The notes beneath the pieces were generated by a model, which saw nothing but the letters and a program-made list of their open reading frames with translations, made no database searches and had not been told where the DNA came from. Below, piece by piece: positions 21,531-38,551 of a stretch of DNA of 64,000 nt. The stretch's first letter is position 1. Each line of letters begins with the position of its first letter. Source of the DNA: a virus; IMG/VR virus record IMGVR_UViG_3300045988_097913, one strand, 5' to 3'. The translations under genes were made by a program, and so were the position numbers.

Positions 21531-24500
21531 TTATCCTTTGGTAAGAACCGTATAATTCTTACCATCAATTGTTATAGTTTGCCAAGACAACGTATCGTTT
21601 TCAGAAATAACAAATTTGCTATGAATATCTGATTTAGAATAATAATTTTGTGTCAAAGATGCTTGGGAGACAAACTTACTATCCGATTGCGTAGATGTAT
21701 AATAATCTGACATATCAGATTTTAACTGATACGCTTCCAACTCTTTTTTTGTGTCATTCCATGTTTTATAATCATCTAAAGCGATTTTATTGATATAGAG
21801 ATTATCTAATGTCTTATTATTTTTAACAATTTGTTCAGAAACATAAGATGTTAAATGGTTTTCATATACAATATTATATCCAGCTTTATATATATCATTT
21901 AACATTGTATCAATAGTTCTTCTGGAATAATAATTCCAAATTCCACGCCATCCGTCTGTATCTTTTCTGCCAACTAGATTTAAGATAGCAATGTATGGGC
22001 CAACCCAGAAAAATTGTAAAAGTGCCCATGCGGCTTCAAAAAACCCGCCAGATAAACCTTCACCGGCATCCTCCACAACGCCGTCTTTGCCGGATGGCGG
22101 TATAGGGTTTGACGGTTTTGGAACTTCTGTGCCACCGAGGTTAAGTCCAGAAACTTTCATGTGACCATCTGCTGTTAATTCAAATATCGGGTCTCCGTTA
22201 TCATCTTTTACAATAGAAGCCATTGTACCATTATTTCCGTCTATAATATATCCAACAGTAGTTCCGTTACCTACTGTTATAATACCGCCATTAATTGTTA
22301 AATTTCCGTTTCCGTCAACTTGGAAAACATCTTTATCACCAGAGCCGGTTCTTTTAATAATATCAATACCAGCGTCAGGGCTTAATCTAATCTCCATAGA
22401 ATCATTGCTAATAACCATACCGCCTTCATCTACGATAAAATTATTAGCGCTATTAGAGATGATTAAATTATTACCCATAATGAGTTTGCCGACAATACTA
22501 TCAGCAATTAATCCCCAAGAGTCTTTGCCTTCTTCGTCTGTAATTTTTCCAAAGACAGCTTTTGTAGTAGCCCATCCGTCATCTGTAAAACAAATTTTAT
22601 TATTTGTAATCCATAGTTGCTCTGGACTAAAACCATTTACATTATTATCTTCACTGGATTTCTTTCTACCTTTAATACCGTAACTACCAAATGTAAAGTC
22701 ATTATCTGTTGTTGCTTTGATAGATTGGTTAGCAGCAATCAAAGCAGTTTTAGTATATCTTGTAACGCTATCAATCGTTCCGTTTGTAACAGGTTGAGAA
22801 ACGGCTGTGAGTAAAGAGCCAACGCTAGAAACTGCACTGGTAGTTTCGTTGTGAAGCTCAGCAAACGTATAAACATCATTAGAGATTCTAAACCTATTAC
22901 CAAATGTCATTGAAAAATTATCTGGGTCATCATAATTGATTTCCATTTCTTGTAAATATGGATATACCCAGTTATCATCTTCCAATTGGATATTTAAGAT
23001 AGAACCAAATAGATTACCTTTCTTTTTTTCGATAGAAGTTAGTTGGTCAATAAATGGTTTGAATTTTTCTATAAATAAAAAGTTGGTACTTTCTAATTCA
23101 AAAGAAAACCTTGGTTGACTAACCACCTTTAGTTTTTTATAACCAGCATCTACGAGTTGTTGTGCAACATAGATGTCATCCATAATAACATCATCTTGCT
23201 TTAATTCGGCAATAGTTTTAACTACGATATTACCAGATGCCTCAACAACTTGAACTTTCGTAGATTCATCAGAATAATCTTTTGTCTGCATACCATCTGT
23301 TACGATAAATGTATCATCAGAAAAACTGCCCTCAATAAGGAACGGGTCTAGTTCTAGTTTCTCTGCATCTGTGAAATATGAGTCAAAAGAATACTGGGCT
23401 ACAATCTTATCTCTTTCTTTTTGAATTGCTTCAATTTCTTTCGTTAGAGCATCAATAGAATAAATAGTTTCAGTTCCGCTTGGTGTTATCTCGTGATTTT
23501 TTACTTCTTTTGCTACGCCTTTACCATTTGCTATAAGTGTTGCATTTGATGCAACGTTATAGTCTGCGTTGATTGGATTCTCTTCACTTGAAGTTAAAAC
23601 AAAATCTTCTTTTCTGGCAGAGTATAATTTCCCACCTGTTTTAAGAATATTTAAGTTAGCTTCACAAGCTTGAGAATAATTTTTCCAGTACGCATATCTT
23701 GTTACAGTATGAGTATCGTCTGTCGTGTAGGTCGCAACTTGGTAGTAATCTACTATGGTATACCCATTCTTTTTTGCTTCACCGTAAGTAACATATCCCT
23801 GCTTTTCTATGAGAAGTGGTGTCCATTTGGCGTAAACGAGAAGTTTGTCAACTTCTGAATACTCTGTATACAAAGACATATTTTGTTGTGCTGTATCATA
23901 ATATGTCTGCATTTGGTTTAGAGCTGCTTGTTGGGTTAGGAGTAAAAGATTAAATCTCTTCTGTAAAGAAGTCCAACTACCATAAGAAGTCTCACTCTTA
24001 TCATAGATTGCTTCTTTACTTGCCTTTTCCCAATCAAGAACCTTCCTCTTTAAATCATTATTCGTAATCCATTCATTATAGTTTTCATAATAATTGGTTG
24101 CGTTTTCATCAAGAACACCAGTGTAATAATCAAGACAGAAAAGTTTCTTTGTACCATTTGGATTGACCTTAGCAATAGTTAAATTTTCTGCACCGGAAAC
24201 ATTGATAACTGTATAAATATCATCGGATAGTTCGCTTACAGTTGCGTTTTTTACAAGGTTATCAAAACTTAAAACGATATTTGTGTTTTTAATAACTTCC
24301 GTTGTATCATAAGCGTTAATGGTATAGTTTTCGTTATCAAATACAAATAAAGCCTCGTAAGATTGGGAAACTTCGTTCGTTAGAAACCCGTACAGTCCTT
24401 TATCTGTTTGGCTAAAAGAACGAGATTTAGATTTAAGAGAATCGCTTACATATCCAATAGACCACTGTGGGGCAATCGCAACTAATTGATGCAACAATGA

Positions 24501-24971
24501 TTTTTCTGGTTGTTGCTCTCTATAAAAAAAGTAATTACTAGTAATTACTTTTGTGTTGTCTACATTCCCGTCATCGTTATCAGTTTTATTATTTTCTATA
24601 TATGTATCTTTTACGGTTGTTACAAACGTAAGATTAATTCCTTTGTTATTTAACAAATATTCTGCCGAATATGCAGTAATAGTTTTATTTGGAACTTTAT
24701 CTTCAAAAGATTCTTCGTCGTTTACAATAGTAAAATAACCAAACCCATCAATATGCAAAAGCTTGCTTTTTTTAACTTTATCATAAAATGGGTTTTTCTT
24801 GCTGTCTATTTTTTTATAAATTTTAAAGCTGGCTTCTGAACAAGACCCCCATTTAGGAGAAATTACTAATTCAGAAATATTTGATAGAATATTAGTTACT
24901 TTTTTATTTGGTCTACATAATTCTATAAGAGGATATTCATACCTCTTATTTAAATCAAAAGTAAAATTAAT
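21531..24971 (-). CDS. tail-associated protein (Tal / phage minor structural protein)
   Basis: More than 1000 aa, immediately after Dit. The track ORF starts at TTG 24758, but the same frame is open and protein-like for 71 more codons up to ATT 24971. Confidence 0.7.
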   Translation of the reverse strand: MNFTFDLNKRYEYPLIELCRPNKKVTNILSNISELVISPKWGSCSEASFKIYKKIDSKKNPFYDKVKKSKLLHIDGFGYFTIVNDEESFEDKVPNKTITAYSAEYLLNNKGINLTFVTTVKDTYIENNKTDNDDGNVDNTKVITSNYFFYREQQPEKSLLHQLVAIAPQWSIGYVSDSLKSKSRSFSQTDKGLYGFLTNEVSQSYEALFVFDNENYTINAYDTTEVIKNTNIVLSFDNLVKNATVSELSDDIYTVINVSGAENLTIAKVNPNGTKKLFCLDYYTGVLDENATNYYENYNEWITNNDLKRKVLDWEKASKEAIYDKSETSYGSWTSLQKRFNLLLLTQQAALNQMQTYYDTAQQNMSLYTEYSEVDKLLVYAKWTPLLIEKQGYVTYGEAKKNGYTIVDYYQVATYTTDDTHTVTRYAYWKNYSQACEANLNILKTGGKLYSARKEDFVLTSSEENPINADYNVASNATLIANGKGVAKEVKNHEITPSGTETIYSIDALTKEIEAIQKERDKIVAQYSFDSYFTDAEKLELDPFLIEGSFSDDTFIVTDGMQTKDYSDESTKVQVVEASGNIVVKTIAELKQDDVIMDDIYVAQQLVDAGYKKLKVVSQPRFSFELESTNFLFIEKFKPFIDQLTSIEKKKGNLFGSILNIQLEDDNWVYPYLQEMEINYDDPDNFSMTFGNRFRISNDVYTFAELHNETTSAVSSVGSLLTAVSQPVTNGTIDSVTRYTKTALIAANQSIKATTDNDFTFGSYGIKGRKKSSEDNNVNGFSPEQLWITNNKICFTDDGWATTKAVFGKITDEEGKDSWGLIADSIVGKLIMGNNLIISNSANNFIVDEGGMVISNDSMEIRLSPDAGIDIIKRTGSGDKDVFQVDGNGNLTINGGIITVGNGTTVGYIIDGNNGTMASIVKDDNGDPIFELTADGHMKVSGLNLGGTEVPKPSNPIPPSGKDGVVEDAGEGLSGGFFEAAWALLQFFWVGPYIAILNLVGRKDTDGWRGIWNYYSRRTIDTMLNDIYKAGYNIVYENHLTSYVSEQIVKNNKTLDNLYINKIALDDYKTWNDTKKELEAYQLKSDMSDYYTSTQSDSKFVSQASLTQNYYSKSDIHSKFVISENDTLSWQTITIDGKNYTVLTKG

Positions 24972-25968: not shown

Positions 25969-28900
25969 TTATATTGTTGCTGCTTTTATGTTTTTATAAC
26001 CACCAAGTCTAGTTTGGTTATTAATTGTTCTAAGGACTTTGTTTACAATATTATCTGCCTCTTTCTTCAAGGAGTTTACAGTAGAAGCATCTGCATCACC
26101 CTGAATGTTAATCGGCATAGAGATATTGATAGAAGAGTTATCGGAGCTAGAATATGTTCTGGTGTTCACTCTTGTGGATTTAACAGCAGTATCCACAGCG
26201 CTACCGAATGGACTACCTGTAAATCTATTGCTACTAGAGGATGGTGTTGCATTGTTTGCCCATGTAGGAACAACTGCTTCACCAACTTTTAGAATAGATA
26301 CAGTTTCGTCATTACCAAGCCCCAGCATTTTATCAAGCATTGGGTTCTGCTTCTTAACGTAATCAGAACCAGAGTGGTGCTTACCAAATATTGCCTTACC
26401 AATACGATATAAGCCATACCCGGGAATCATCATCTTGGTAAAATTAAGCAGTGTACCACCTAGTTTTTGACCAAAATTCTTGTCTCTGTTTTTCCATAAT
26501 GCTATCGTATCTTTCCAATAAGTACCTACTGAGCCAATTGCGTTAGCACCGCCAATAACAACAACTCCCGCAGTACCAAGAGTACCTAGTAATCCAGCAC
26601 CGCCAGCAGCAGTAGCAGCTGCGCCGCCAGCGGCGGCTCCGGTTGCACCAGCAGTTCCTCCAATACCAAGTAAACTACCGATTCCTTTTCCAAGAGATGT
26701 AACGATACCACCTATACCGGATAAGAGTTTGCTTCCTCCTTGTATAACCATGCTTACAACTTGGCTTGCAACATTACCTAAATTAGATATAATCCCGCTA
26801 CCAATGTTCCCAAGAGAGCCAAGTGAATTTATACCATACTGAGTTAATCGCTGAATAAATCCAACGCCACTATTAAATACGGTGTTTATTCCATTTAAGA
26901 CAACAGAACTAATTCCTTTTGCTCCATTTGCAAATTTTTGGATTATGCCTCCACCAGACGATGCCATATCATTTATGACCTTACTAAAGGTTTTGCCTGT
27001 ATTTGCAAATGATTTTTCGGTTGCTTTGCCAATATCTTTTAGGCTCTTATAAGCTTTCTTAATATCCCCTGTTACATCAGAATCTATCCCAGAACCAAAT
27101 AGTTTATTGTATCCTGTGAGCAATTTTGTTACAGTATCGCTACCGGTATTAATTAGTGCTTTGCTAATTAAATTTTTAACTAGGTCACTACTAAGAATTT
27201 TAATAAATGTATTGAAACCATTTTCGATATTTCCTAGAGTAGTCTCAAATTGTTTCTGAGCATCTTGCAAAGTTTGTTTTTGCGCTTCTATAGCTTTCTT
27301 TTCTGCTTCTATTGTCTTTTCATATTCTGATTTTTCTTTATCAAGAGCATCAATTTTTATATCGTAGTCGTTATCCTTTTGCCAATCAGAAAGGTCTTTT
27401 TCTTTTTGTGCTCTTTCATCAAGAAGTTTTAAACGCTTGGCTTGTGCTTCTGCTGAGTCGTCATATTGCAGTTCCATCAATTGAGCATCAATATCCGCAA
27501 TAGATTTATTCTTTTCGGCAAGTTCATCAGCGTTATCCATCTCTTCTTTTTGAAGTTTTAGGAGTTCTTTTTGCTGGTCAATTTTGTCTTCAAAAGCATC
27601 TTTTTGGTCATCGAGTTCATCAGAAATCTTATCAAGGTTATCAATCTGAGCATCATATCTGTCAGAAATCTTACCTAACATATCAAACAGGAAATCACCT
27701 GCTTTTTCAAGCAAGTCGATTGCCGTATCAATCATATCTTCGATTTCATCTTGTAATGCTTTGATATTCTTAGAAGCGTCATCATATAGGTCTTGTTGGG
27801 CATCATCAAGTGTACCAGTAGACTTTAGTAAGGCGTTTATAACAGCTTCCACCTGTTTTTCTACTGATTCTCCGCTAATATCACCAAGGTTTAACGCTTC
27901 TGCCATAGCAGCTCTGTAATCTGCGTCATTGGTGATTTTGTCAATAAACTTCTGATAATCAGCTTTTGCTGCATTCAGTGCTTCGTCAGAACTCCAAGCG
28001 CCATAAATACCATTTTTATATTTTTCTATAACAGCCTTAGCAGAACTTAAATCTTCTTTAGCTAGATTCTTTAGAAGTTTTTGGTACGATTCTTGAATCG
28101 TACCAGCTTGTTTTTGCCATAGCGTTGTTAGCTCTTGAATTTGTTTTTCAACTGGCATATTGCTTATATCAAGATTAAACGCATCAGCTAGAACTTTTCT
28201 GGCTTTTGGGTCGTTTATAACTTCATTTAAGATTTTGTCATATCTGTCTTGGAACTCTTTGACGACAGTTGGGTCATCCCAGTTAGCATTCTCAGAATAC
28301 AGCTGTACAATACTCTTTAGGTTTTGAACTTTTTCTTTGATTGCACTTTCAAATTCTTTTGCAGCTTTATCAGCGGCAGATGTACCAGAAGAGCCAGATT
28401 TCCCGGAAGACTTGCTTTTTGGAGGTGTATAAGTTAGTCCAGCTTTTTGTAATTTGGTTAAAGCATCTAATTGCTCTTGTAAATCGTCCTTGGTCTCTTG
28501 CGCTTGCTTTCCTTGTTGCTCAAGATAATATTTTGTTTTTTGCTGTCCACGATATGTGTCCAAATCCGTCGCAGAGACCTTTTCTCCTGCGTCTATTCTT
28601 TTTTGGATAAGCTTACCAAGAGCAATCATTTCTTGCTCTATTGCTTTTATTCTTTTTTTTGTTTCATCAATCACAGACTGCGTTTGTGTTATTTGTTGTT
28701 TTTTTGTTTCAATAGCTGTATTAAAATAACCATTCGATAAATCTTGAAGAGAATCAATATTTATTCTAATATGCCCATTTTCTACAGTAAGCGCACTAAC
28801 AAGAGACGGTTCTTGCTCAATTAGTTTCTGAACTGTGGCGACACTAAGTTCGCCCTTTTCTTTCATTTCGCTATATGCCGCATTTAGAATCTCTTGTTTC

Positions 28901-30430
28901 TCTGTGACATTTGCAACGGTAGAAATATAATCCTTCATTGCCTCGTCTTGAGTAACGAGAGCATTTGTTGCCTCGGTAGTCCAGTCTGCAACCTGTTTGG
29001 AAGTTAATTCAAATATTGCTTGATTAACTTGCCCATACATTTGCTGGAACTTCGTAAGGAGTTCTTGCGTTAAATTGTCAATGTTTAAATCATTGACATC
29101 AATATTCATAGCTTGCGCCCAAGCTGCTTTTATAGAATCATCAGAATTTAGAATTTGTTGTGCAAATTTATTTGCATACGCTTCTGCCGTCTTTTGCCCG
29201 GCTTCGTCACCAGCTTGGACAGCTTCTTGTAACTTATCAGAAATACCAGAAGTGTCAATCAAATTTTTGACTTTAATTGTTTCAAAATTAGACGGGTCAA
29301 GCGCTAGGTTAACCGTGTCAAGTTGCTCTTGAAGCATCTTATACACGTCAGAACTTGTATCCCCAAGATTTTGTAAAGTTTGCATATCTTGAAGAATTGT
29401 TAATTTCTGATTTTGTAAAGCAAGTGTTTGAGCGTCCATCTGAGAATTAAGTTGTTGTAACCTAGTCGCATAATTCTCATCTGTTTTATCGAGATTTTGT
29501 TTTTCTTTGTTTAGCTGGGCAATATTCGCAAGGAGCTGATTGACGCTTGCCGATTCTGCGTCATAAAGTCTTGGTGCGATACCCACAAAAGAAGACTGAT
29601 ATTCTTCAACAGACTTATTATCGCCATATCTTGATTTAATTTCTCCCTGAGTTTTTTCTTTTGATACGGCTTTATTCGCCTCATTAACATCATTTTGCGT
29701 TTTCTGAATTTCTTTTAGGACATCAAGTTGTTCTTGAAGGTTCTCTTTTTGTTGCTCATCTGCTAATGTTAAAGTACCTTTAGAGTTGATTTCTGAGATT
29801 TGTTTGTTAATTTCAGTTATTTTATTATTTGTCTCATCAAGGTTCTGTTGGCTCTCTTGCAAGGCTTCATTTGCTTTTTTGACTTGTGCATCTGGTTGAG
29901 CATCTTTCCAAGCGTTCCATGCAACTTTCGCAACAGCTCCAATGGCGGTAATGGCTGCTACTACACCCCATATTGGTACTGCAACAGAACCTATTGTAAA
30001 TAATGTTGTATTTAGCGCCCCAATCGCACTTGTGGCAGTTATCGCAAGACTTGGAAGTTGCCCAATTAAATTGGATGTCTCCCATATATTTTTAAATATA
30101 TTGCCTGCAAAAGCTGTTGCTAAAGCAACACCGAGAGCTTTAATTAGTGGACTTAAAACTGGAATTTTATTTAGTAGAATATTTAGAATTTCTACGACTT
30201 TGGACAAACCATCGTATGCTAATGCAAGGGTTCTATCAAGGTTAGAATCCTGTGCAAATTGTTGAACACTTGCGGTTAATCTATTTTGTGCAGCTTCAAG
30301 AGATTCGTTGTAGACCGTCATCTTTTCAGCAGCAACACCGTTTGCATTTTCTGCAACACTAGTCGCTTCTAGGACACGGTTATAGTCCTCCATAGCAGCA
30401 ATAAAGACGTTGCGCTGTCTTGTGCCCGCC
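25969..30430 (-). CDS. tape measure protein, exon 4
   Basis: Frame is open upstream of the track ATG: (V)AGTRQRNVFIAAMEDYNRV continues the TMP core. Long coiled coil with a Gly/Ala-rich segment near the C-terminus. Confidence 0.8.
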
Positions 30431-30616
30431 CAATCTGTTACTTTTGTGACCTATTATTAAAATAGGCGAGAACGGTTCTCCTTAAAAGTGTCTTTACACT
30501 TGACCGCTCTTCTATAAGTTTCCTTATAGTTCAGACTATATTTTCATCCTTATACAACAAAACACATCCCAACAATAAGAGATGTGTTTGATATAAGGAG
30601 CATTCCTCCTTAGTCG

Positions 30617-31543
30617 TTACGATGCAATATTTTTAATAAGGTCTTTGTAATTATATTTGATAACTTCGTTATCTAATTCAATGTAACCTCTGTCACAATA
30701 GAAATAGATTACTTTACACCCATCGTTAAATTTAACAAGAGCAAAATCTTTTAGGCGTTCTAGTATATCATTTTCCGGTAGTTTATCCTTGTCTAGCACG
30801 AAAATGATTTGATAGAAGCCGTTGTCTCTGATAGTATCAATTCTATTTTTTTCTTTAGTATTAAATTGTTCTTGCGTCATTTTGCCAAGAACAACATCGA
30901 GATTATGTCCAGAGCCATTTATCTCAATATCTAATTTATCAGATTCAACGTAAATATCAAAAAGATATTTTCCAATCCTATGATTTATAACTCCATTATA
31001 TAAGTCTGCTAAATACTTCTGGCAGTAACTATATAATCCATTATCACCTTGCATAGACTCCATTTGTTTTTTAGCAAATTCATCTACTTTCATAGGGTTA
31101 TCCTCGCCATATCTTTCGATAAGTGTTTTGATTCTTTTGCTATTTATTTCTTTGTTCAAAATTGGATTTTCACATCCGTATCTTTGAATATTTGTTGCTC
31201 TTGCTTTATCTCTAATATCCTGTGATTGCATTGGGTTGTCTATGTTATACCGCTCCTTAAATGTATCTTTTGCTTTAAGATGACGGCAATGCACACAAGC
31301 GTCCGTTCTGGGTTTTCCTAAAGATTTATCTAACGATACGTTTCTTGTATAACAAGAATATGTAATGTTATATTCCTCTCCACAATAATCACATTTTACA
31401 GAGACTTTTACCGTACTTTTTGGTGTTAAATCCTCAACAGGGACTTGTATTTCATCAAACATTTTTACATTATATCCGAGTGATTTATAATGAGACATAG
31501 AATGGTTGTTTACTTTTACTTTAACGAATTTCGTCAAAAGCAT
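30617..31543 (-). CDS. intron-encoded homing endonuclease-like protein
   Basis: ATG 31543 follows AGGAGGTGG. Contains a 4-Cys finger (CDYC...CVHC) and three ~23-aa repeats with an RYG-x-(D/E)NP core. C-terminal DIYVE...IEINGSGHN resembles a Vsr/PD-(D/E)XK-type nuclease. Confidence 0.7.
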   Translation of the reverse strand: MLLTKFVKVKVNNHSMSHYKSLGYNVKMFDEIQVPVEDLTPKSTVKVSVKCDYCGEEYNITYSCYTRNVSLDKSLGKPRTDACVHCRHLKAKDTFKERYNIDNPMQSQDIRDKARATNIQRYGCENPILNKEINSKRIKTLIERYGEDNPMKVDEFAKKQMESMQGDNGLYSYCQKYLADLYNGVINHRIGKYLFDIYVESDKLDIEINGSGHNLDVVLGKMTQEQFNTKEKNRIDTIRDNGFYQIIFVLDKDKLPENDILERLKDFALVKFNDGCKVIYFYCDRGYIELDNEVIKYNYKDLIKNIAS

Positions 31544-31565
31544 ATAATACCACCTCCTATTACTT

Positions 31566-31593
31566 ATTATAATCAATATTTTATATTTGTCAA
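31566..31593 (-). promoter_or_regulatory. sigma-70-type promoter inside intron C
   Basis: On the minus strand: TTGACA (31593-31588), 16-nt spacer, TATAAT (31571-31566), upstream of the endonuclease RBS. Confidence 0.55.
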
Positions 31594-31717
31594 GACCTAA
31601 AACAAAAATATTGTTATCTCGGTATTCCCTTATTTATACAAACTTAGGGTTCACCGATATAGGAATGTTGTAGTGTTATAAACACCTACGAATTACTTCG
31701 TATTGTGGCTACTTAAA

Positions 31718-32181
31718 ACCACATAAGCCAACTGGTTCTGTTCAAGAGTGCTCATGTTATTCCATTTTGCACCGATTTCATCAAGAACCGTGCCAATTTC
31801 ACGCATTTTACCGTTTGTATCAACTAGGGTAATTCCATATTTGGATAGAACTTTATCTGCGTCATTGATTGTGTGGGTTATACCTTGCTCATCAACGAGG
31901 TCATCCAAATCTACTTTTGCCGTGATTTTTGATATACGCGAGATGATACTCTGCCAAGCAGACCCGATAACTTCTGGTGCTTGTCGAGTCTTTTCCTCAG
32001 AAATAGTAATTAGACCAATTAGTTTATCAAGCCCTACCCCTGCTTGTCCAGCAGAACTAGCAACTTTCTGTAATGCCGTAGAGATTTCGCCTGTGCTGGC
32101 AGCGTAGGAAAGGTCTACTTGCACAAGTTTGTCTACGATTTTGCTTGTATCATCTACAGCTACATTATAGGATTTTGTAAT
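31718..32181 (-). CDS. tape measure protein, exon 3
   Basis: ITKSYNVAVDDTSKIVDKLVQVDLSYAASTGEISTALQKVASSAG...EQNQLAYV is the TP901-type TMP core. The 5' boundary has an alternative at 32195. Confidence 0.75.
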
Positions 32182-33653
32182 CTTTGTATTGACGGCAGTT
32201 CGTTACTCTGTCGTTGTTATTTATAGAATTTTTCTCCTGTGTCAATATTTATTCCATAATAGACACAATTTGATTCTTTTAGCTTTGTAAATGCTTCATT
32301 CTTAATTTTATATAAATAATTATCATTTGGAAGTTTGTCTGTCTTTGAAATTATTTCAAATTCTTTATAACCATTATCAAGGAAGACCTTTCTTCTCAAC
32401 TCTTCGTGTTCATCAAATCCTTCTTGCGTCATTTTGTTGTATGTTACACGAATATTATGCCCAGAACCAGAATACTCGATATAAATATGTTCGTCTTCAA
32501 ACAAAATATCCGCCAAATATCCGAACATTGGAGCATTTATTTCACCGCCATATAACTTCCATAAATAAATTTGTTCAGAAGAAGTCATTGCTCCATTAAT
32601 GCCATATCTTTCATCTCTTGTTTTTAAGGCACGATTTCTAATTTCTTCATTTTGCATTGGATATTCAGTCCCATATCTTTCAAGAGTTGTTGCTTTTGCC
32701 TTTTGCATAATTTCTTCTTTCAATAACGGATTCTCAACGCCATATTTTTCTAAACAAGTATTTTTAATCTTATTCTTTATTTGTTCCGAGTGCATTGGAT
32801 GATTACAACCATATTTTTTCTGCATTGTTTCAAGCGTTTTCTTGTGTACTTCGTCTGACTGTAATCCACATACGCTTCCATATTTTTCAAGATTTGTTGC
32901 AACCACTTTTTCTCGCACAAAATCTAATTGAGAGACATATTCTTTTCCATATTTAAACATAACAGATTCTTTTCTCTTCTGATTGATACAACCTTGGTTA
33001 CTGCAACAATCTTTTGGATAATTTTTTCTGTGGGTTGCGTAAGAATAATATGCGACAGTGTAATTTGCTCCACAATAATCACATACTACATTAACGCTAC
33101 ATCTTGCCCATCTTGATACATCAGAAATATTTACTTGAATATACTCATTTATTTTAGCGTCATATCCCAATCTTTTGTATCTTTTGACATTAGAACCAGT
33201 ACATAAAATTGATACCATTTTAGAAACTAATATACAAAACACCACCTTAGATATACATAACTCTATAAATAACACTCGCACTTTTATGCGAGAATAGACT
33301 ATATCTTCATCTTCATAAAGAAGAGTTTCCCATTTCGATTTAAAGGGATTTCACCTACGCTTAACGATTTGCGCCCTACTTCTATTGCATCTTTTGAATG
33401 CCACGGAATAGTCGTTGAACCTTATCCTTAAATATTGTATCATAAATTATTTTGATAGTAAAGAGTTTTAATAAATATTTAAGAATCTTGGCTGCGGATT
33501 ATCCAATCTTTAACTATTTTACTATACTGAGGTAATTATTCTCACCGCCATCTATATTTCTATGATGGTTTAGTTGTTAAAGCTCTAAGGAGTTTCCCGT
33601 CAATTAAAGAAATAAATTATTGTATATATCACTATATACCCTGCCTAAAATCA
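32182..33653 (-). mobile_element. group I intron B (about 1472 nt) with endonuclease ORF
   Basis: Minus-strand P AATTGACGGGAAAC (33605-33592), Q AATCCGCAGCC (33500-33490), R GGTTCAACGACTA (33421-33409), S GAAGATATAGTCT (33308-33296). P1 is CUGCU/GGCAG with U.G at the splice site. Confidence 0.75.
32217..33218 (-). CDS. intron-encoded homing endonuclease-like protein (paralogue of 30617..31543)
   Basis: Same architecture as its paralogue: CDYC...Cys finger, six (K/R)YG-x-x-(N/H/Y)P repeats, and C-terminal LFEDEHIYIEYSGSGHN. The start is uncertain (ATG 33218 chosen). Confidence 0.65.
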   Translation of the reverse strand: MVSILCTGSNVKRYKRLGYDAKINEYIQVNISDVSRWARCSVNVVCDYCGANYTVAYYSYATHRKNYPKDCCSNQGCINQKRKESVMFKYGKEYVSQLDFVREKVVATNLEKYGSVCGLQSDEVHKKTLETMQKKYGCNHPMHSEQIKNKIKNTCLEKYGVENPLLKEEIMQKAKATTLERYGTEYPMQNEEIRNRALKTRDERYGINGAMTSSEQIYLWKLYGGEINAPMFGYLADILFEDEHIYIEYSGSGHNIRVTYNKMTQEGFDEHEELRRKVFLDNGYKEFEIISKTDKLPNDNYLYKIKNEAFTKLKESNCVYYGINIDTGEKFYK

Positions 33654-33762
33654 AGCAGTGAGTTGGTCAGTCGCCTCGCTTGCGTCTAATTGACCAACAA
33701 CAGCCAACGTAGTTGACTGCTTTAGCATCTCCATTGCTTCTTGAGCATTATAACCCTGTCTT
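33654..33762 (-). CDS. tape measure protein, exon 2 (109-nt micro-exon, not in ORF track)
   Basis: Encodes (L)RQGYNAQEAMEMLKQSTTLAVVGQLDASEATDQLTA, the missing TMP core segment. It is flanked by stop codons in its frame. Confidence 0.8.
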
Positions 33763-34120
33763 CAATTTGTTACTCTTAATAATCGCCACTTATCAAAAGA
33801 TTCCATATAGGATTTTCTATGTATTTCTACATAAGTTCTGACTATATCTTTACCATAAAGGTATCTCCCGTTTCAGAGCACTCGCCCTTACAATTAGTCG
33901 ATGAACCTTACTCTTAAATATTATATCATATCTATTAAAATATTTCAATAGCTTTATTATAAATATTTAAGAATCTTGGCTGCTGATTATCCAATCTTCG
34001 ATTATTTTACCATGCCTGAATGATTAGTTCAGCCATTATTATATCACTATAATAACTTGGTTATCAAAGCTCTAAGGACTTTCCAGCAATTAGAGAGATT
34101 TTACTTGACCTAGACATTTA
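33763..34120 (-). mobile_element. group I intron A (358 nt, ORF-less)
   Basis: Minus-strand P AATTGCTGGAAAGT (34091-34078), Q AATCAGCAGCC (33988-33978), R GGTTCATCGACTA (33907-33895), S AAAGATATAGTCAG (33851-33838). P1 is CUUGGCU/GGUCAAG with a terminal U.G. The intron ends ...AGTAACAAATTG. Confidence 0.8.
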
Positions 34121-35688
34121 AGCCAAGCATCTGCACCCTCTGCAACTGTGGTCGTAGTAGTGCCAAGTTGCTTTGCCAATTTAGTATAACTATCAGCCAA
34201 CGCCACAGTATCTTCATAGCTACCCATTGTAACCATACGAACCTGTGTCATGGCTTCGTTCATATCATAAATTGCAGATGTAAATTCGCTAGTGATTTTG
34301 TTGATGGCTTCCATAGCCACCCGATACTTAATAAAATTTTCTACACTAGATTGAACGGAGTCAGAAAGAGACTTTTGCCCTTCTTTATGTGTTTCTAAGG
34401 TTACATTTGCTTGTCTGAGCGCATCTGTAACTTGTTCCGTCTGGTTTTCTTGATTTTTTTGAACGACAACAAACTGAGCCGTTCCGCTTGTGCTAGCTTG
34501 TACCTCAACTCCGTATTGTTTTAGTGTAGAGACAAGACCGCTCATTGCAGTTTGAGTATCTTTGTATGCTTGAGTATCTTGTTTTCCTTGTGATTCAAGA
34601 GTTTGCAAAGTCTGATATTGCTTTACATACTCCTTAATGGTACTCAGAAGTTTCTGGTCTTTGGCTTTTGCATTTGTAGCATCAAGAGATGTGCCAACAT
34701 TTTTTACAGCCTTTTCAACCTTATCAATATTTTCTTTTGCCTGAACGGCGCTTGTTGCTGTTTTGTCAAAAGTTAATTTACCAGTTGTTTGGTCAATAAC
34801 AAGACCATATTGTTTCATTTCAAAAACAATATTTTGAAGCTGTTTTTCTAGCTCTTGATAATACGCAGAACCTTTTTGACCGCTTGTTTCTGCCTGAGTT
34901 ATTTTAGCCTGAACAGACTGATATTGATTCAACAAACTAATACTATTTGTTAGATTAGTATTATCCTTTTCCGCAACGGCTTGATTTTGTAGATTTTGTT
35001 TATAGACATTTCTTTTGGCAATAAGCTCTTGTTCTGCATTGGCAATATTTTGTTTAGCTACCGTGTTTTGTGTGCTTAACTGTTTCTCTAATTCTTGCCG
35101 CTCTGTGGCGAGTTGTGTCTTCAACGAGGTGTAATATTGGACATTAACAGAATTACCTTGCTGTTTAGCATCCATTATCTTCGTCTCATACTGGTATCTC
35201 TTCTCAAGATTTTGTATAATTTCTTTTTCAATTTGACTTTGTTCTTTTGTTTGTTCTGCACCAGAATAAGTGGACGAAGATGTTCTTAGTTGCTCATATT
35301 GCTTTCTTATATTTATTACTTCTTGAAGACTGCCAGCGGCCTTTATACTTTCTGCTTCTGCAACGTCTATCGCATCTTTTATGCTTTGTTTTAATGTTAT
35401 TACTGTTCCATTTGCATCTTTGAAAGACGAAGTAATATTAGACCCAGCCCGTTTGACACTTCCTCCGAGGCTTTCAACTAATTTTGCTACTTCATTTATA
35501 TCGTCTTTTTTGAAGTTCTTCGGGAAAGAAAAGCCTTTACCCATTGCTTCGCTTACTTGCGACGATATTTTTTCTGCAACCTCTTTTAGCTCTTCTTCTA
35601 AATATTTTGCACTGTCTGTTACATTTTTAGTATCAAACTCAGGCGTAATTAGAAAGCTAAAAATATCGCTTTGAGATTTATTTGCCAT
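34121..35688 (-). CDS. tape measure protein, exon 1
   Basis: Coiled-coil N-terminal region ending ...LAKQLGTTTTTVAEGADAW(L). The track ORF reads through into the intron (KCLGQVKSL-stop). Confidence 0.8.
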
Positions 35689-36990: not shown

Positions 36991-38037
36991 TTAAATATCG
37001 CTCAAACTACCAGTTTTGATATCTTGTTTAATACCATTTTCATCAAAATAATCACCGAGAGAATCTGCAACGTCTAAATCACAATAAGTGGATGTGAGGT
37101 CTCCTGACCAGCCTACAAGCGCAACAACAACATCATTAGGTAGTTTTGCTTCCTTCATCATAGTAACATATCTATGTCTACAGCAGTGACTATAGAAATC
37201 AACCCCCATAAAACTTGAGATAGTTCTACAAATACTATCTGCCGTTGAAATAGTTGCCTGACGATAAGTACCGTCATCGTTCTTTACGATGAATAACCAT
37301 TCGCTTTCAATGTTATTTTCTTTACGATATTTCATCCAAAGGTCATAGTACGGCTTAAACTGTTTAATAAATGTAAACTTGTTAAGTAATTTACCTTGTT
37401 TACCACGACCCTTAGTACGAATTTGTTCTGGTGTCTTATACATACAGCCATAAACAATATCTTTATCAGTAAACCAATCTGCCTTAAATTGGACTAATTC
37501 TGCCTTTCTTGCGCCGCAGTTCACAGCAAGAGCAAGATAGCAAGCCGCCTGATACCGTTTAGCGGCAACCAATTTATCAAGACAATCTTGAATCTGCTCT
37601 TCGCTCATAACAGTTTTTTCACGAACCAACTGCTTTACAGGAGTTTCCAGCTTAACAACAATATTTCTAAAATCAGGAAACTCATCATCAAGAACATTTT
37701 CAATATAATCTGACATAGAAGATAGAGATGATTTAATAGTAGAGATTCTATTACTAGACCATCCCATTTCTGTAATTGCATAATTAAAGAAACTAACAAG
37801 TTGCCGCTTCTTCAAATCCACAAAGAACGTGTCTTTATTATGCAAATAATTCCAACAGAAGAACAGACGAATCATTTGTTCATATTGATAAATCGTCTGT
37901 GGAGAACGCCCGCCAGTAGTTTTATATGCAAGATAATCTTTCAACAGGTTCTTATTATCTTCGTTAACTTTTGTCCAAATTTCTTCTGTGTAAATTCTAT
38001 TATATACAGTTTTTCTTCCCAATTTCGTCACTTCCAA
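36991..38037 (-). CDS. tyrosine recombinase (phage integrase family)
   Basis: SAM-like N-terminal domain. Catalytic region is ...GARKAEL...HCCRHRYVTMM...LVGWSGD...TSTYCD (R, HxxR, W/H, Y). Confidence 0.75.
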   Translation of the reverse strand: MEVTKLGRKTVYNRIYTEEIWTKVNEDNKNLLKDYLAYKTTGGRSPQTIYQYEQMIRLFFCWNYLHNKDTFFVDLKKRQLVSFFNYAITEMGWSSNRISTIKSSLSSMSDYIENVLDDEFPDFRNIVVKLETPVKQLVREKTVMSEEQIQDCLDKLVAAKRYQAACYLALAVNCGARKAELVQFKADWFTDKDIVYGCMYKTPEQIRTKGRGKQGKLLNKFTFIKQFKPYYDLWMKYRKENNIESEWLFIVKNDDGTYRQATISTADSICRTISSFMGVDFYSHCCRHRYVTMMKEAKLPNDVVVALVGWSGDLTSTYCDLDVADSLGDYFDENGIKQDIKTGSLSDI

Positions 38038-38551
38038 TCTTATCTAATAACTTTGCTACATCATAGCTATAATATTTTTTCTTTAATTTTTTATCTATTT
38101 GAACAGCACCATACGCAATACAGTCCTGAATATTTATTGAAACCTTAGTTGATTCTTTTTTAAATTTATTGAAATCTTTGATACTCAAGAAATAAGTTCC
38201 ATCATTTCTAAAGTCTAACACAAAACCACATATACAATTACAATACTTATTATACTCAGTAAGAGCTTGAATTTGATGCCAATGGATTTCTCGTTTAGTA
38301 GGATTTTCTTTCGTTGGTTTCTCACGTTCGAAAGAAAAGCTCTTCTTGTCTGTTGATTTTAGTTCCAGACAATACATACAAGGAGTTTTGAACAAGATAA
38401 AGTCAAACAGAGATTTCATAGAAAATCTTGTTGACCTACTATCTTGTCCAAAACCACTTGCGCTATCATGCAGTCTAATTACTGCCACATCTTTAGGAAT
38501 ACTCTCTTTGAACTTCTGTTCAAAAATCTTTCCAACATTCGTCAATATCAA
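38000..38551 (-). CDS. recU: RecU-like Holliday junction resolvase (PD-(D/E)XK)
   Basis: FEQKFKESI..., SLFDFILFK...LELKST (D...ExK) and HWHQIQAL resemble RecU/PrfA. Confidence 0.55.
   Translation of the reverse strand: MILTNVGKIFEQKFKESIPKDVAVIRLHDSASGFGQDSRSTRFSMKSLFDFILFKTPCMYCLELKSTDKKSFSFEREKPTKENPTKREIHWHQIQALTEYNKYCNCICGFVLDFRNDGTYFLSIKDFNKFKKESTKVSINIQDCIAYGAVQIDKKLKKKYYSYDVAKLLDKIGSDEIGKKNCI

What the first reader, a model, noticed from the sequence alone, without database searches (positions are those of the whole stretch)
25969..35688. Tape measure gene split into four exons by three group I introns
Three separate minus-strand ORFs plus one unannotated 109-nt segment are consecutive pieces of a single TP901/PhageMin_Tail-type tape measure protein:
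- ...TVAEGADAW(L)
- RQGYNAQEAMEMLKQSTTLAVVGQLDASEATDQLTA
- ITKSYNVAVDDTSKIVDKLVQVDLSYAASTGEIS...EQNQLAYV
- (V)AGTRQRNVFIAAMEDYNRV...

With the junctions proposed here, the exons (1568+109+464+4462 nt) sum to 6603 nt, which is 2200 codons plus a stop with no frame break. Every 5' junction follows a U that can pair with G in a P1 helix a few nt downstream, and every intervening sequence ends in G. The intervening sequences of introns A and B carry recognisable group I P, Q, R and S elements in canonical order; in intron C only R- and S-like elements are clear. Each track ORF dies a few codons after its junction.

Staphylococcus phage Twort orf142, with three self-splicing introns, is the classical precedent. 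A triple-intron tape measure gene has not, to my knowledge, been described.
Basis: partly seen in the sequence, partly recalled or inferred. Interest (0 to 1): 0.9.

Follow-up and report, generated by a model that had tools for sequence, protein, structure and literature searches.

The report
Three self-splicing introns split tail gene
A gut phage's tail-length ("tape measure") gene is cut into four pieces by three group I introns, two of which carry homing-endonuclease genes; the reading is correct, but the same layout has already been shown by experiment in Vibrio phage ICP1, so this is a new example and not a new phenomenon.

Summary
On the minus strand, exons 35688-34121, 33762-33654, 32181-31718 and 30430-25969 (1568+109+464+4462 = 6603 nt) join into one 2200-codon ORF. 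Single unbroken matches to PF10145 and TIGR01760 run across the junctions.

Rfam RF00028 (group I intron) scores above its curated threshold for intron A (75.1 bits) and intron B (65.8 bits). Intron C is missed in the window because a 308-aa endonuclease gene sits in its P6 loop. An ORF-less ortholog in a related contig matches the full model at 39.5 bits (E 1.7e-8).

The decisive evidence is comparative. Related IMG/VR and GenBank phage contigs carry uninterrupted alleles at each of the three sites, and these match the predicted spliced junctions (60/60, 58/60 and 52/60 nt). All three introns have a U.G pair at the 5' splice site in P1 and a terminal G.

The novelty claim fails. Barth et al. 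2023 showed by RNA-seq and RT-PCR that the ICP1 tape measure transcript has four exons and three introns. Tourasse & Kolsto 2008 described group I introns at three tape measure sites in Bacillus prophages. Splicing here is inferred, not measured.

Verdict: real, well supported, a new member of a known kind. Interest is low to moderate.

The parts
34121..35688 (-). Tape measure exon 1 (1568 nt, aa 1-522 plus 2 nt of codon 523)
   Evidence: ORF 34090-35688. It ends at the U of ...TTGGCT that forms the U.G pair of P1. Intron-less alleles continue directly into exon 2 (L006, 60/60 nt).
33763..34120 (-). Intron A: group I intron, 358 nt, no ORF
   Evidence: Rfam RF00028 75.1 bits, E 3e-17, full model 1-253. 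P1 is CUUGGCU/GGUCAAG with a U.G pair, and the intron ends in G. It is absent precisely in L002, L003, L004, L006 and L018. L019 also lacks it by tblastn. L014 and L016 carry the same intron with a 270-aa endonuclease ORF.
33654..33762 (-). Tape measure exon 2 (109 nt, 36 aa, RQGYNAQEAMEMLKQSTTLAVVGQLDASEATDQLTA)
   Evidence: It lies in frame only after splicing. A TGA sits immediately upstream in the unspliced frame, and there is no own start or ribosome-binding site. It is contiguous with exons 1 and 3 in L002, L003 and L018.
32182..33653 (-). Intron B: group I intron, 1472 nt, ribozyme core at the 5' end (to about 33275) and the endonuclease gene downstream of P9
   Evidence: Rfam RF00028 65.8 bits, E 1.9e-14. 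P1 is CUGCU/GGCAG with a U.G pair, and the intron ends in G. It is absent precisely in MT835481.1/L001 (window 32182-33654 missing, flanks adjacent) and in L002, L003, L007-L011 and L018. L019 also lacks it by tblastn. Its core is about 77% identical to intron A.
32217..33233 (-). Endonuclease gene of intron B. AUG at 33218; a possible AUA start at 33233, 8 nt after the Shine-Dalgarno sequence AAGGTGG at 33248-33242
   Evidence: Pfam DUF7487 E 2.6e-29. PHROG 12131 'homing endonuclease' E 4.5e-45. AlphaFold model with pLDDT 89.6. The only high-probability Foldseek PDB match is the Vsr endonuclease, 1cw0_A, prob 0.94, TM(target) 0.54. Invariant residues are a Cys4 cluster and D258/E269/G272/G274/H275. 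Some homologs carry PF04480 (DUF559). The start codon is uncertain.
31718..32181 (-). Tape measure exon 3 (464 nt)
   Evidence: ORF 31693-32124 plus in-frame upstream sequence. It is contiguous with exon 4 in L004, L005 and L006.
30431..31717 (-). Intron C: group I intron, 1287 nt, endonuclease gene inserted in the P6 loop
   Evidence: There is no Rfam hit in the window. The ORF-less ortholog L017 6467-6676 matches RF00028 over the full model at 39.5 bits, E 1.7e-8, below the gathering score of 50. Helices read from the sequence are P1 UGUGGU/GCCACA, P3 CAUUCCU/AGGAAUG, P4 UCGGU/ACCGA, P6 CAAUAUU/AAUAUUG and P7 GACUA/UAGUC, and the intron ends in G. Window versus L017 shows compensatory changes in P2 and P6. 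The intron is absent precisely in L004-L006.
31566..31593 (-). Promoter-like site inside intron C, upstream of its endonuclease gene (TTGACA-16-TATAAT, 12/12), followed by the ribosome-binding site AGGAGGTG
   Evidence: It is the best-scoring site of the consensus scan. The ribosome-binding site was read from the sequence. Function is inferred only.
30617..31543 (-). Endonuclease gene of intron C (308 aa from the AUG at 31543). Its last codons overlap the 3' strand of P6
   Evidence: Pfam DUF7487 E 2.7e-13. PHROG 12131 E 8.1e-22. The C-terminal domain gives a weak DUF559 hit, E 0.032. It aligns with the intron B endonuclease family.
25969..30430 (-). Tape measure exon 4 (4462 nt including the stop codon)
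   Evidence: ORF 25969-30393 plus in-frame upstream sequence up to the junction. A minor tail protein gene follows downstream at 21531-24758.

Best explanation
The region encodes one 2200-aa TP901-family tape measure protein. Its conserved PhageMin_Tail domain is interrupted by three mobile group I introns.

**Proposed mechanism.**
1. The tail operon is transcribed through the whole 9.7-kb region.
2. Each intron folds into a group I ribozyme. P1 presents the 5' splice-site U.G pair.
3. An external guanosine attacks the 5' splice site.
4. The intron's terminal G then defines the 3' splice site.
5. The exons are ligated into a continuous mRNA.

**Mobility.** Introns B and C each carry a gene for a homing endonuclease. 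The protein has a zinc finger, DUF7487 repeats and a C-terminal Vsr-like nuclease domain. During mixed infection it presumably cuts intron-less tape measure alleles and copies the intron into them by recombinational repair. Intron A is an ORF-less relative of B, about 77% identical in the core, that has lost its endonuclease gene or never gained one.

**Shown here:**
- the exon-intron coordinates;
- the ribozyme cores;
- the U.G and terminal-G splice signals;
- the existence of precise intron-minus alleles;
- the endonuclease family and fold.

**Inferred:**
- that splicing actually occurs;
- that the endonucleases are active;
- that the internal promoter is used.
For: **Continuous gene after splicing.**
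- Conceptual splicing gives one ORF of 2200 aa.
- PF10145 matches residues 503-711 in a single stretch, E 6.1e-28. This spans junctions A and B; junction C, at codon 714, lies just beyond it.
- TIGR01760 matches profile positions 10-346 of 349 in a single stretch, E 6.1e-38, across all three junctions.

**Ribozyme cores and splice signals.**
- RF00028 is above its gathering score for A and B. For the ORF-less ortholog of C it gives E 1.7e-8.
- P1 hairpins with a U.G pair and a terminal G are found at all three introns.

**Intron-less alleles.**
- Intron-less alleles at each site reproduce the predicted junctions: A 60/60 nt in L006, B 58/60 in L003, C 52/60 in L004.
- The insertion and deletion end points are exact in MT835481.1.
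- Each intron is present in some of the 19 related contigs and absent from others, as expected for mobile elements.

**Independent assemblies.** Orthologous introns are 97-99% identical across contigs from different assemblies.

**Endonuclease genes.**
- PHROG 'homing endonuclease' matches.
- A confident structural model whose nuclease domain resembles Vsr.
- A conserved D...E-x-x-G-x-G-H motif.

**Insertion sites.** The sites fall on the most conserved tape measure motifs, WLRQG, LT(A/S)..KGY and AGxRQ, as is typical of homing introns.

**Experimental precedent.** A tape measure gene with three introns was shown in phage ICP1 (PMC10448857). [quoted passage not shown]
Against: - There is no RNA or protein evidence for this phage. 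Splicing is inferred from sequence only.
- Intron C gives no Rfam hit in the window, and its ORF-less ortholog scores below the curated threshold (39.5 versus 50 bits).
- P10 pairings are convincing only for intron A (AGACA/UGUCU). They are weak for B and C.
- The intron B endonuclease gene has no well-placed AUG. The AUG used by gene callers in relatives is AUA in the window.
- The Foldseek E-values for the Vsr match are weak (0.24-0.54) because the whole multidomain model was searched. No PDB sequence match was found.
- Host and lifestyle are unknown.
Confidence: 0.9

Rival explanations
1. Partly dead introns and a gene in pieces. One or more introns no longer splice, intron C being the most likely. 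The tape measure protein would then be made as separate polypeptides that assemble non-covalently, for example an N-terminal product ending at ...AYVVLSSHNTK* and a C-terminal 1474-aa product starting at the ATG at 30393.
For: Intron C has no Rfam hit in the window. Exon 4 contains an in-frame ATG 37 nt after the junction. Split phage genes that remain functional around endonuclease insertions are cited in the literature (reference list of PMC10448857).
Against: - All core helices, the U.G pair and the terminal G of intron C are intact. They are 97-99% conserved in L001, L007 and L011, and show compensatory changes against L017.
- The ORF-less ortholog matches the full RF00028 model.
- No purine-rich ribosome-binding site precedes the ATG at 30393.
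- Exon 2 (36 aa) has no start codon or ribosome-binding site.
- Intron-less alleles encode one continuous protein.
Confidence: 0.05
2. Splicing occurs but is incomplete or alternative. Exon skipping between the homologous introns A and B is one possible form. The region would then yield truncated tape measure isoforms as well as the full-length protein, adding a regulatory layer.
For: Introns A and B are about 77% identical in their cores and are separated by only 109 nt. [quoted passage not shown]
Against: Skipping exon 2 (109 nt, not a multiple of 3) would shift the frame and truncate the protein. The P1 guide sequences of A and B are specific to their own 5' exons. No data support isoforms.
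Confidence: 0.04
3. Assembly artefact or chimeric contig. On this view the intervening sequences were inserted by mis-assembly of metagenomic reads.
For: The window and its relatives are metagenome assemblies.
Against: The same introns occur at the same nucleotide positions in many independently assembled contigs, including a GenBank record from a different study. The boundaries coincide with ribozyme splice signals and preserve the reading frame.
Confidence: 0.01

Closest known systems
Vibrio phage ICP1 tape measure gene (Barth et al. 2023, NAR Genom Bioinform, PMC10448857)
   Same: [quoted passage not shown] Homing-endonuclease genes sit in some of the introns, and endonuclease content varies between isolates while the splice junctions are kept. 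Splicing was shown by RNA-seq and RT-PCR.
   Different: ICP1 belongs to a different phage lineage with a Gram-negative host. Its tape measure gene was not among the tblastn matches to this domain at E <= 1e-10. Its endonucleases are HNH-3 type, whereas those here are DUF7487 plus a Vsr-like domain. Homology of the introns or of the insertion sites was not tested.
TMP-IVS1/2/3 group I introns of Bacillus cereus-group prophages (Tourasse & Kolsto 2008, NAR, PMC2504315)
   Same: Group I introns at three positions of a large tape measure gene of low-GC Gram-positive (pro)phages. Closely related introns sit at two different sites with diverged P1 (IVS1 and IVS2 are 80% identical; A and B here about 77%). 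Presence or absence of the introns and of their endonuclease genes varies between strains.
   Different: In the strains described there, no more than two introns occur in one gene; here there are three, and four in relative L017. Bacillus phage tape measure domains are only 25-30% identical to this one. Whether the insertion sites are homologous could not be tested.
Staphylococcus phage Twort orf142 (Landthaler & Shub 1999, PNAS)
   Same: A phage structural gene with three self-splicing group I introns. The citation was seen; the details come from my own knowledge.
   Different: It is a different gene, described as a tail tube subunit in PMC5526547, in a different phage family.
I-Bth0305I / 'EDxHD' Vsr-like homing endonucleases (Taylor et al. 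2011, NAR, PMC3239194)
   Same: A phage group I intron-encoded endonuclease with an N-terminal DNA-binding region and a C-terminal Vsr-like nuclease fold. The intron B endonuclease model resembles Vsr.
   Different: No direct sequence or structure match to I-Bth0305I was obtained. The conserved motif here is D...E-x-x-G-x-G-H, and the N-terminus is a Cys4 finger plus DUF7487 repeats. Family membership is not established.

Membership tests
Group I self-splicing intron (Rfam RF00028) | Conserved catalytic core (P3-P9 with the P, Q, R and S elements), scored by a covariance model | tested here: met
   Intron A scores 75.1 bits and intron B 65.8 bits against a gathering score of 50, both over the full model. 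For intron C the result is partial. There is no hit in the window because a 0.97-kb ORF lies in the P6 loop. The ORF-less ortholog scores 39.5 bits, E 1.7e-8. All helices were identified by hand.
Group I self-splicing intron (Rfam RF00028) | The 5' splice site follows a U that forms a U.G wobble in P1 with an internal guide sequence | tested here: met
   The pairings are A CUUGGCU/GGUCAAG, B CUGCU/GGCAG and C UGUGGU/GCCACA. The P1 hairpins appear in unconstrained folds.
Group I self-splicing intron (Rfam RF00028) | The last intron nucleotide is G (omega-G) | tested here: met
   The 3' ends are ...AAATTG|...ACAAAG| and ...AGATTG|. The 1-nt ambiguity at C is resolved by L017.
Group I self-splicing intron (Rfam RF00028) | Precise removal restores an uninterrupted host gene | tested here: met
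   The spliced ORF has 2200 aa. Natural intron-less alleles match the predicted junctions at 60/60, 58/60 and 52/60 nt.
Group I self-splicing intron (Rfam RF00028) | Guanosine-initiated self-splicing of the RNA | not testable with these tools
   This needs in vitro transcription with GTP labelling, or cDNA from infected cells.
Subgroup IA2 (typical phage group I introns) | Extra P7.1/P7.2 pairings between P7 and the 3' strand of P3 | tested here: inconclusive
   Rfam alignments show insertions of 22 nt (A) and 74 nt (B) between GACUA and the 3' strand of P3. This is compatible with P7.1/P7.2, but the structure was not modelled. Intron C has no such insertion (GACUAAGGAGGAAUG), so its subgroup is left unassigned.
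TP901-family phage tail tape measure protein (TIGR01760 / PF10145) | Match to the family profiles above their curated cut-offs, as one continuous domain | tested here: met
   TIGR01760 scores 130.7 bits against a cut-off of 28.8, covering profile positions 10-346 of 349 in one stretch. PF10145 scores 98.5 bits against a cut-off of 33.2, covering profile positions 2-196 of 201.
TP901-family phage tail tape measure protein (TIGR01760 / PF10145) | Position in a tail morphogenesis module, with a very long coiled or helical protein | tested here: met
   The protein has 2200 aa. Minor tail protein genes follow downstream (PHROG 6211). The two small upstream ORFs are unannotated, so tail-chaperone identity was not shown.
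Vsr-like ('EDxHD', I-Bth0305I-type) homing endonuclease | C-terminal nuclease domain with the Vsr fold | tested here: inconclusive
   The model has pLDDT 89.6. Foldseek gives 1cw0_A at prob 0.94 and TM(target) 0.54, and 1vsr at prob 0.75, but with E 0.24-0.54. The intron C endonuclease gives a weak DUF559 hit, E 0.032. Some homologs carry PF04480 or are named Vsr endonuclease by their source.
Vsr-like ('EDxHD', I-Bth0305I-type) homing endonuclease | Detectable homology to I-Bth0305I and its E-D-x-H-D motif | tested here: not met
   No PDB sequence hit was found with either the single sequence or the profile. I-Bth0305I is not among the Foldseek hits. The conserved residues here are D258, E269, G272, G274 and H275.
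Vsr-like ('EDxHD', I-Bth0305I-type) homing endonuclease | Cleaves the intron-less allele near the insertion site and promotes homing | not testable with these tools
   Only indirect support exists: each intron is present in some related contigs and absent from others.

The most novel reading that the evidence does not exclude
The window shows one state of an unusually dense and polymorphic intron hotspot. The evidence is:
- At least six distinct insertion sites (A, B, D, C1, C2, E) lie within about 600 nt of the conserved tape measure domain.
- At least two ribozyme lineages occupy them.
- Three endonuclease families occur in them: Vsr-like, LAGLIDADG and HNH.
- One gene carries up to four introns, with a 26-nt mini-exon (L017).
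- None of the 20 alleles examined is intron-free.
- One intron type found in relatives (C2) ends in A where every other intron here ends in G, according to comparison with intron-less alleles.

If this picture holds, the lineage would be a natural system for watching intron and endonuclease gain, loss and swapping in the human gut. It might also reveal a non-canonical 3' splice site.
Probability: 0.5. Interest if true: 0.45.

Novelty: new member of a known kind. Interest (0 to 1): 0.3.

Why it matters
**Annotation.** Gene callers split this tape measure gene into three or four "proteins" plus unexplained gaps. The protein database holds many such fragments, ending exactly at the splice sites. 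Tail-length inference, protein clustering and taxonomy of these gut phages are distorted as a result.

**Biology.** This is a further, well-documented case showing that the conserved domain of TP901-type tape measure genes is a preferred landing pad for group I introns and homing endonucleases. It has natural intron-plus and intron-minus alleles at every site. Those alleles could be used directly as substrates to test homing and endonuclease specificity.

**Limit.** It does not open a new question. Tape measure genes with three introns (ICP1) and tape measure group I introns (Bacillus prophages) are already published.

Tried and rejected
**Searches that found nothing or failed**
- Rfam on the window, at gathering and at permissive E-value thresholds, finds nothing for intron C. 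The large ORF in P6 explains this; the ORF-less L017 copy is detected.
- The genome-contig scan for prophage relatives or a host found none. As a result, the host stays unknown, and homology of the insertion sites with the Bacillus IVS1-3 sites could not be tested.
- GenBank phages hold only one close relative, MT835481.1, which is unannotated. All cultured phages are at most about 30% identical in the tape measure domain.
- PDB sequence and profile searches for the endonuclease gave only noise. Structure prediction followed by Foldseek was needed to see the Vsr-like domain.

**Readings considered and rejected**
- Inteins. The inserts carry stop codons in frame and have RNA cores.
- Free-standing endonuclease cassettes or a gene in pieces. 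Exon 2 has no start codon, and the ribozyme signals are intact.
- Mis-assembly. Many independent contigs share the same arrangement.
- Shifting junction C by 1 nt. The L017 ortholog excludes this.

**Left unresolved**
I could not find a consistent 3' splice site for the C2 intron seen in relatives.

Full report
**1. What is in the sequence**

All features lie on the minus strand. The ORF listing returns three tape-measure-like ORFs: 34090-35688, 31693-32124 and 25969-30393. Two ORFs of 354 and 319 aa lie between them.

The segments are 35688-34121, 33762-33654, 32181-31718 and 30430-25969. The joined sequence translates to 2200 aa with a single terminal stop. The junction peptides read ...EGADAW-L-RQGYN......TDQLTA-ITKSYN... 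and ...LAYV-V-AGTRQRN....

In the unspliced sequence each upstream frame ends within 0-9 codons of its junction.

The spliced protein matches PF10145 (PhageMin_Tail) in one stretch, residues 503-711, E 6.1e-28. This stretch spans junctions A and B; junction C, at codon 714, lies just past it. A 385-aa segment covering all three junctions matches TIGR01760 (tape_meas_TP901) in one stretch, profile positions 10-346 of 349, E 6.1e-38.

A minor tail protein gene follows downstream at 21531-24758.

**2. Are the intervening sequences group I introns?**

*Introns A and B.* Rfam RF00028 is the only family reaching its gathering score anywhere in the 64-kb window, and it does so twice. The hits are 34175-33817 (75.1 bits, E 3e-17) and 33662-33275 (65.8 bits, E 1.9e-14). 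Both are on the minus strand and cover the full model. They correspond to introns A and B. Their alignments show the canonical elements:
- P4/P5: AAUUGCUGGAAAG.UCC in A and AAUUGACGGGAAAC.UCC in B
- Q: GGAUAAUC(A/C)GCAGCC
- R: GUUCA(U/A)CGACUA
- S: AAGAUAUAGUC

*Intron C.* It gives no Rfam hit even at E <= 10. The reason is visible in the sequence. The core is split by about 0.97 kb carrying a promoter-like site, a ribosome-binding site and an ORF, all sitting in the loop of P6 (CAAUAUU...AAUAUUG). Around the insert I can read these pairings:
- P1 UGUGGU/GCCACA
- P2 UACGAAG/UUCGUA
- P3 CAUUCCU/AGGAAUG
- P4 UCGGU/ACCGA
- P5 CCCU/AGGG
- P7 GACUA/UAGUC
- J8/7-P7 AAAAUAUAGUC
- a long P8 and a P9 hairpin

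These come and from the ORF-deleted fold.

A related contig, L017, carries the same intron without the ORF. There RF00028 matches the full model at 39.5 bits, E 1.7e-8. That is below the curated cut-off of 50 but far from chance. Comparing the window copy with L017 shows pair-preserving changes. In P2, C-G becomes U-A. In P6 the helix has an entirely different sequence that still pairs (CAAUAUU/AAUAUUG versus UUCUUGU/ACAAGAA).

*Chance.* The S-element motif ARATATAGTC occurs exactly three times in the window, once in each intron, against 0.56 expected.

**3. Splice sites**

Each 5' exon ends in a U that pairs with a G of an internal guide sequence 8-11 nt into the intron. The P1 hairpins form spontaneously in minimum-free-energy folds of 35-nt windows. 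Each intron ends in G. A plausible P10 pairing (AGACA/UGUCU) is seen for intron A only.

**4. The comparative test**

This is the strongest evidence.

*First relative.* megablast found one GenBank relative, MT835481.1, an unannotated phage contig from a human faecal sample, 93% identical. It contains introns A and C but lacks window 32182-33654 exactly. The flanks are adjacent and read TDQLTA|ITKSYNV.

*IMG/VR relatives.* A protein-guided scan of IMG/VR returned 18 further loci. I mapped the spliced protein and 60-nt predicted junctions onto them. Uninterrupted alleles exist at every site:

| Site | Loci with the predicted ligated junction | Best match to the junction |
|---|---|---|
| A | L002, L003, L004, L006, L018 | 60/60 nt (L006) |
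| B | L001, L002, L003, L007-L011, L018 | 58/60 nt (L003) |
| C | L004, L005, L006 | 52/60 nt (L004) |

L019 also has no intron at A or B by tblastn.

The differences from the predicted junctions fall at synonymous positions.

*Other combinations.* L012 and L013 carry introns A and B plus a different intron near site C, so three-intron alleles are not unique to this contig.

*Junction C.* It has a 1-nt ambiguity that does not alter the protein.

*Protein database.* The database independently shows the same picture. Fragments cover 19-20%, 28-29% or 69-70% of the query, so they end at sites A, B or C.

*Conserved motifs.* The three sites fall on the most conserved motifs of the domain: WLRQG, LT(A/S)..KGY and AGxRQ. 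Some tape measure fragments only 33-38% identical to this protein start or stop at the same places.

**5. The intron ORFs**

Both ORFs match Pfam DUF7487 and PHROG families annotated as homing endonuclease.

The family is very large, with more than 3400 hits. Some members carry PF04480/DUF559 or are named very-short-patch-repair endonuclease by their source.

An alignment of 28 members shows an invariant Cys4 cluster, tandem KYGxxNP repeats, and a C-terminal D...E-x-x-G-x-G-H motif.

An AlphaFold model built from this alignment is confident, with mean pLDDT 89.6. Its only high-probability PDB neighbour is E. coli Vsr: 1cw0_A with prob 0.94 and TM(target) 0.54, and 1vsr.

The nuclease domain is therefore Vsr-like, as in the I-Bth0305I "EDxHD" homing endonucleases (PMC3239194). 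No direct match to I-Bth0305I was found, so I do not claim family membership.

The intron C gene is preceded by a perfect TTGACA-16-TATAAT and by AGGAGGTG.

The intron B gene has a good Shine-Dalgarno sequence 8 nt before an AUA. That AUA aligns with Met1 of the homologs. The next AUG lies 15 nt further downstream.

**6. Mechanism**

The best explanation is the standard one: co-transcription with the tail genes, three guanosine-initiated self-splicing reactions, and translation of a 2200-aa tape measure protein. Introns B and C would spread by endonuclease-mediated homing. Intron A would be a passenger, or a copy that has lost its endonuclease gene. L014 and L016 carry intron A with a 270-aa endonuclease of the same family.

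Splicing, endonuclease activity and promoter use are all inferred.

**7. Comparison with what is known**

- Tourasse & Kolsto 2008 described group I introns at three sites (IVS1-3) in the tape measure gene of Bacillus cereus-group prophages. They found closely related introns at different sites and different introns at one site (PMC2504315).
- Barth et al. 2023 state that the tape measure gene is "frequently interrupted". [quoted passage not shown]

What is new here:
- the phage lineage, which is uncultured, from the human gut, about 35% GC, and has no cultured relative above about 30% identity in the tape measure domain;
- the endonuclease family;
- the richness of the presence/absence polymorphism.

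**8. Side observations in relatives**

- L017 has four introns. Removing 241, 1281, 283 and 273 nt restores an ORF of at least 2188 aa. A 26-nt mini-exon lies between the last two introns.
- L019 has an additional site (D) between B and C.
- The intron C core carries a LAGLIDADG-type ORF in L009 and L010 where the window has the Vsr-like one.
- A different intron type (C2, related to A and B) lies 7 nt downstream of site C and carries an HNH-type ORF.
- For C2, comparison with intron-less alleles implies a terminal A where a G is expected. No alternative G-terminated site gives the conserved protein. I could not resolve this.

**9. Verdict**

Confidence that this is a tape measure gene interrupted by three group I introns is about 0.9 or higher. 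The finding is a new member of a known kind. Interest is about 0.3. It is useful for annotation and as material for homing studies, but it would not surprise specialists.

Noticed in passing
L014 6471-7017 (also L002, L003, L008, L012, L013, L015, L016, L018 near locus position 6470-8180): A second intron type, 'C2', lies 7 nt downstream of the window's site C. It is Rfam-positive (53.9-55.8 bits) and related to introns A and B. It has a good P1 (CGCCGGU/GCUGGCG). Comparison with intron-less alleles places its 3' end after ...AACAAA, so the terminal base would be A and not the universal G. Alternative G-terminated sites either delete three conserved residues or leave stop codons in all frames.
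   Followed up: partly
L017 4382-7058: A relative's tape measure gene carries four group I introns of 241, 1281, 283 and 273 nt. A 26-nt mini-exon (AGCCGGAACGCGTCAGCGAAATGTTT) lies between the last two. Removing all four restores an ORF of at least 2188 aa. That is more introns than in the window or in the published ICP1 and Twort cases.
   Followed up: yes
L019 6418-6732 and 7117-8704: This locus has a further insertion site (D) between sites B and C, at residue 587/588 of the spliced protein. It also has two Rfam-positive cores in the site C region. Together with A, B, C1, C2 and E, this makes at least six insertion sites within about 600 nt of the tape measure domain.
   Followed up: partly
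L009 7279-8016, L010 (same), L002 7149-8141, L014 3589-4401: Endonuclease genes are swapped within conserved intron cores. The intron C core holds a 245-aa ORF with LAGLIDADG-like motifs (LGGLLGD, WWMDDG) in L009 and L010. The C2 intron holds a 330-aa HNH-type ORF. Intron A holds a 270-aa DUF7487/Vsr-like ORF in L014 and L016. The family assignments were made by eye from motifs only.
   Followed up: partly
window 33216-33290 (minus strand): The AUG that opens the longest intron B ORF in eight relatives lies in the P9 loop and is AUA in the window. In all copies a strong Shine-Dalgarno sequence (AAGGTGG) sits 8 nt before another AUA, and that AUA aligns with Met1 of the homologs. This suggests a non-AUG start or attenuated translation of the endonuclease.
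   Followed up: partly
window 36991-38551 (minus strand): A tyrosine-recombinase/integrase-like ORF (348 aa, PHROG 1, E 1.9e-26) overlaps a Holliday-junction-resolvase-like ORF (183 aa, PHROG 843). They sit immediately upstream of the two small ORFs that precede the tape measure gene, inside what should be the structural module. The arrangement is conserved in MT835481.1.
   Followed up: no
proteins P0015, P0103, P0054 (alignment): Tape measure fragments only 33-38% identical to this protein begin or end at the same sites. P0015 begins at ...EW|LRQG (site A). P0103 begins at MKGY, just after site B. P0054 ends at ...AIAGK (site C). This suggests that the same conserved motifs are interrupted in much more distant phages.
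   Followed up: no
window and L001-L019, tape measure domain: None of the 20 alleles examined is free of introns. The N-terminal third of the tape measure protein is highly divergent between contigs (30-55% aa identity). The intron-bearing domain is 84-100% identical, which is compatible with homogenisation of the flanks by repeated homing.
   Followed up: partly
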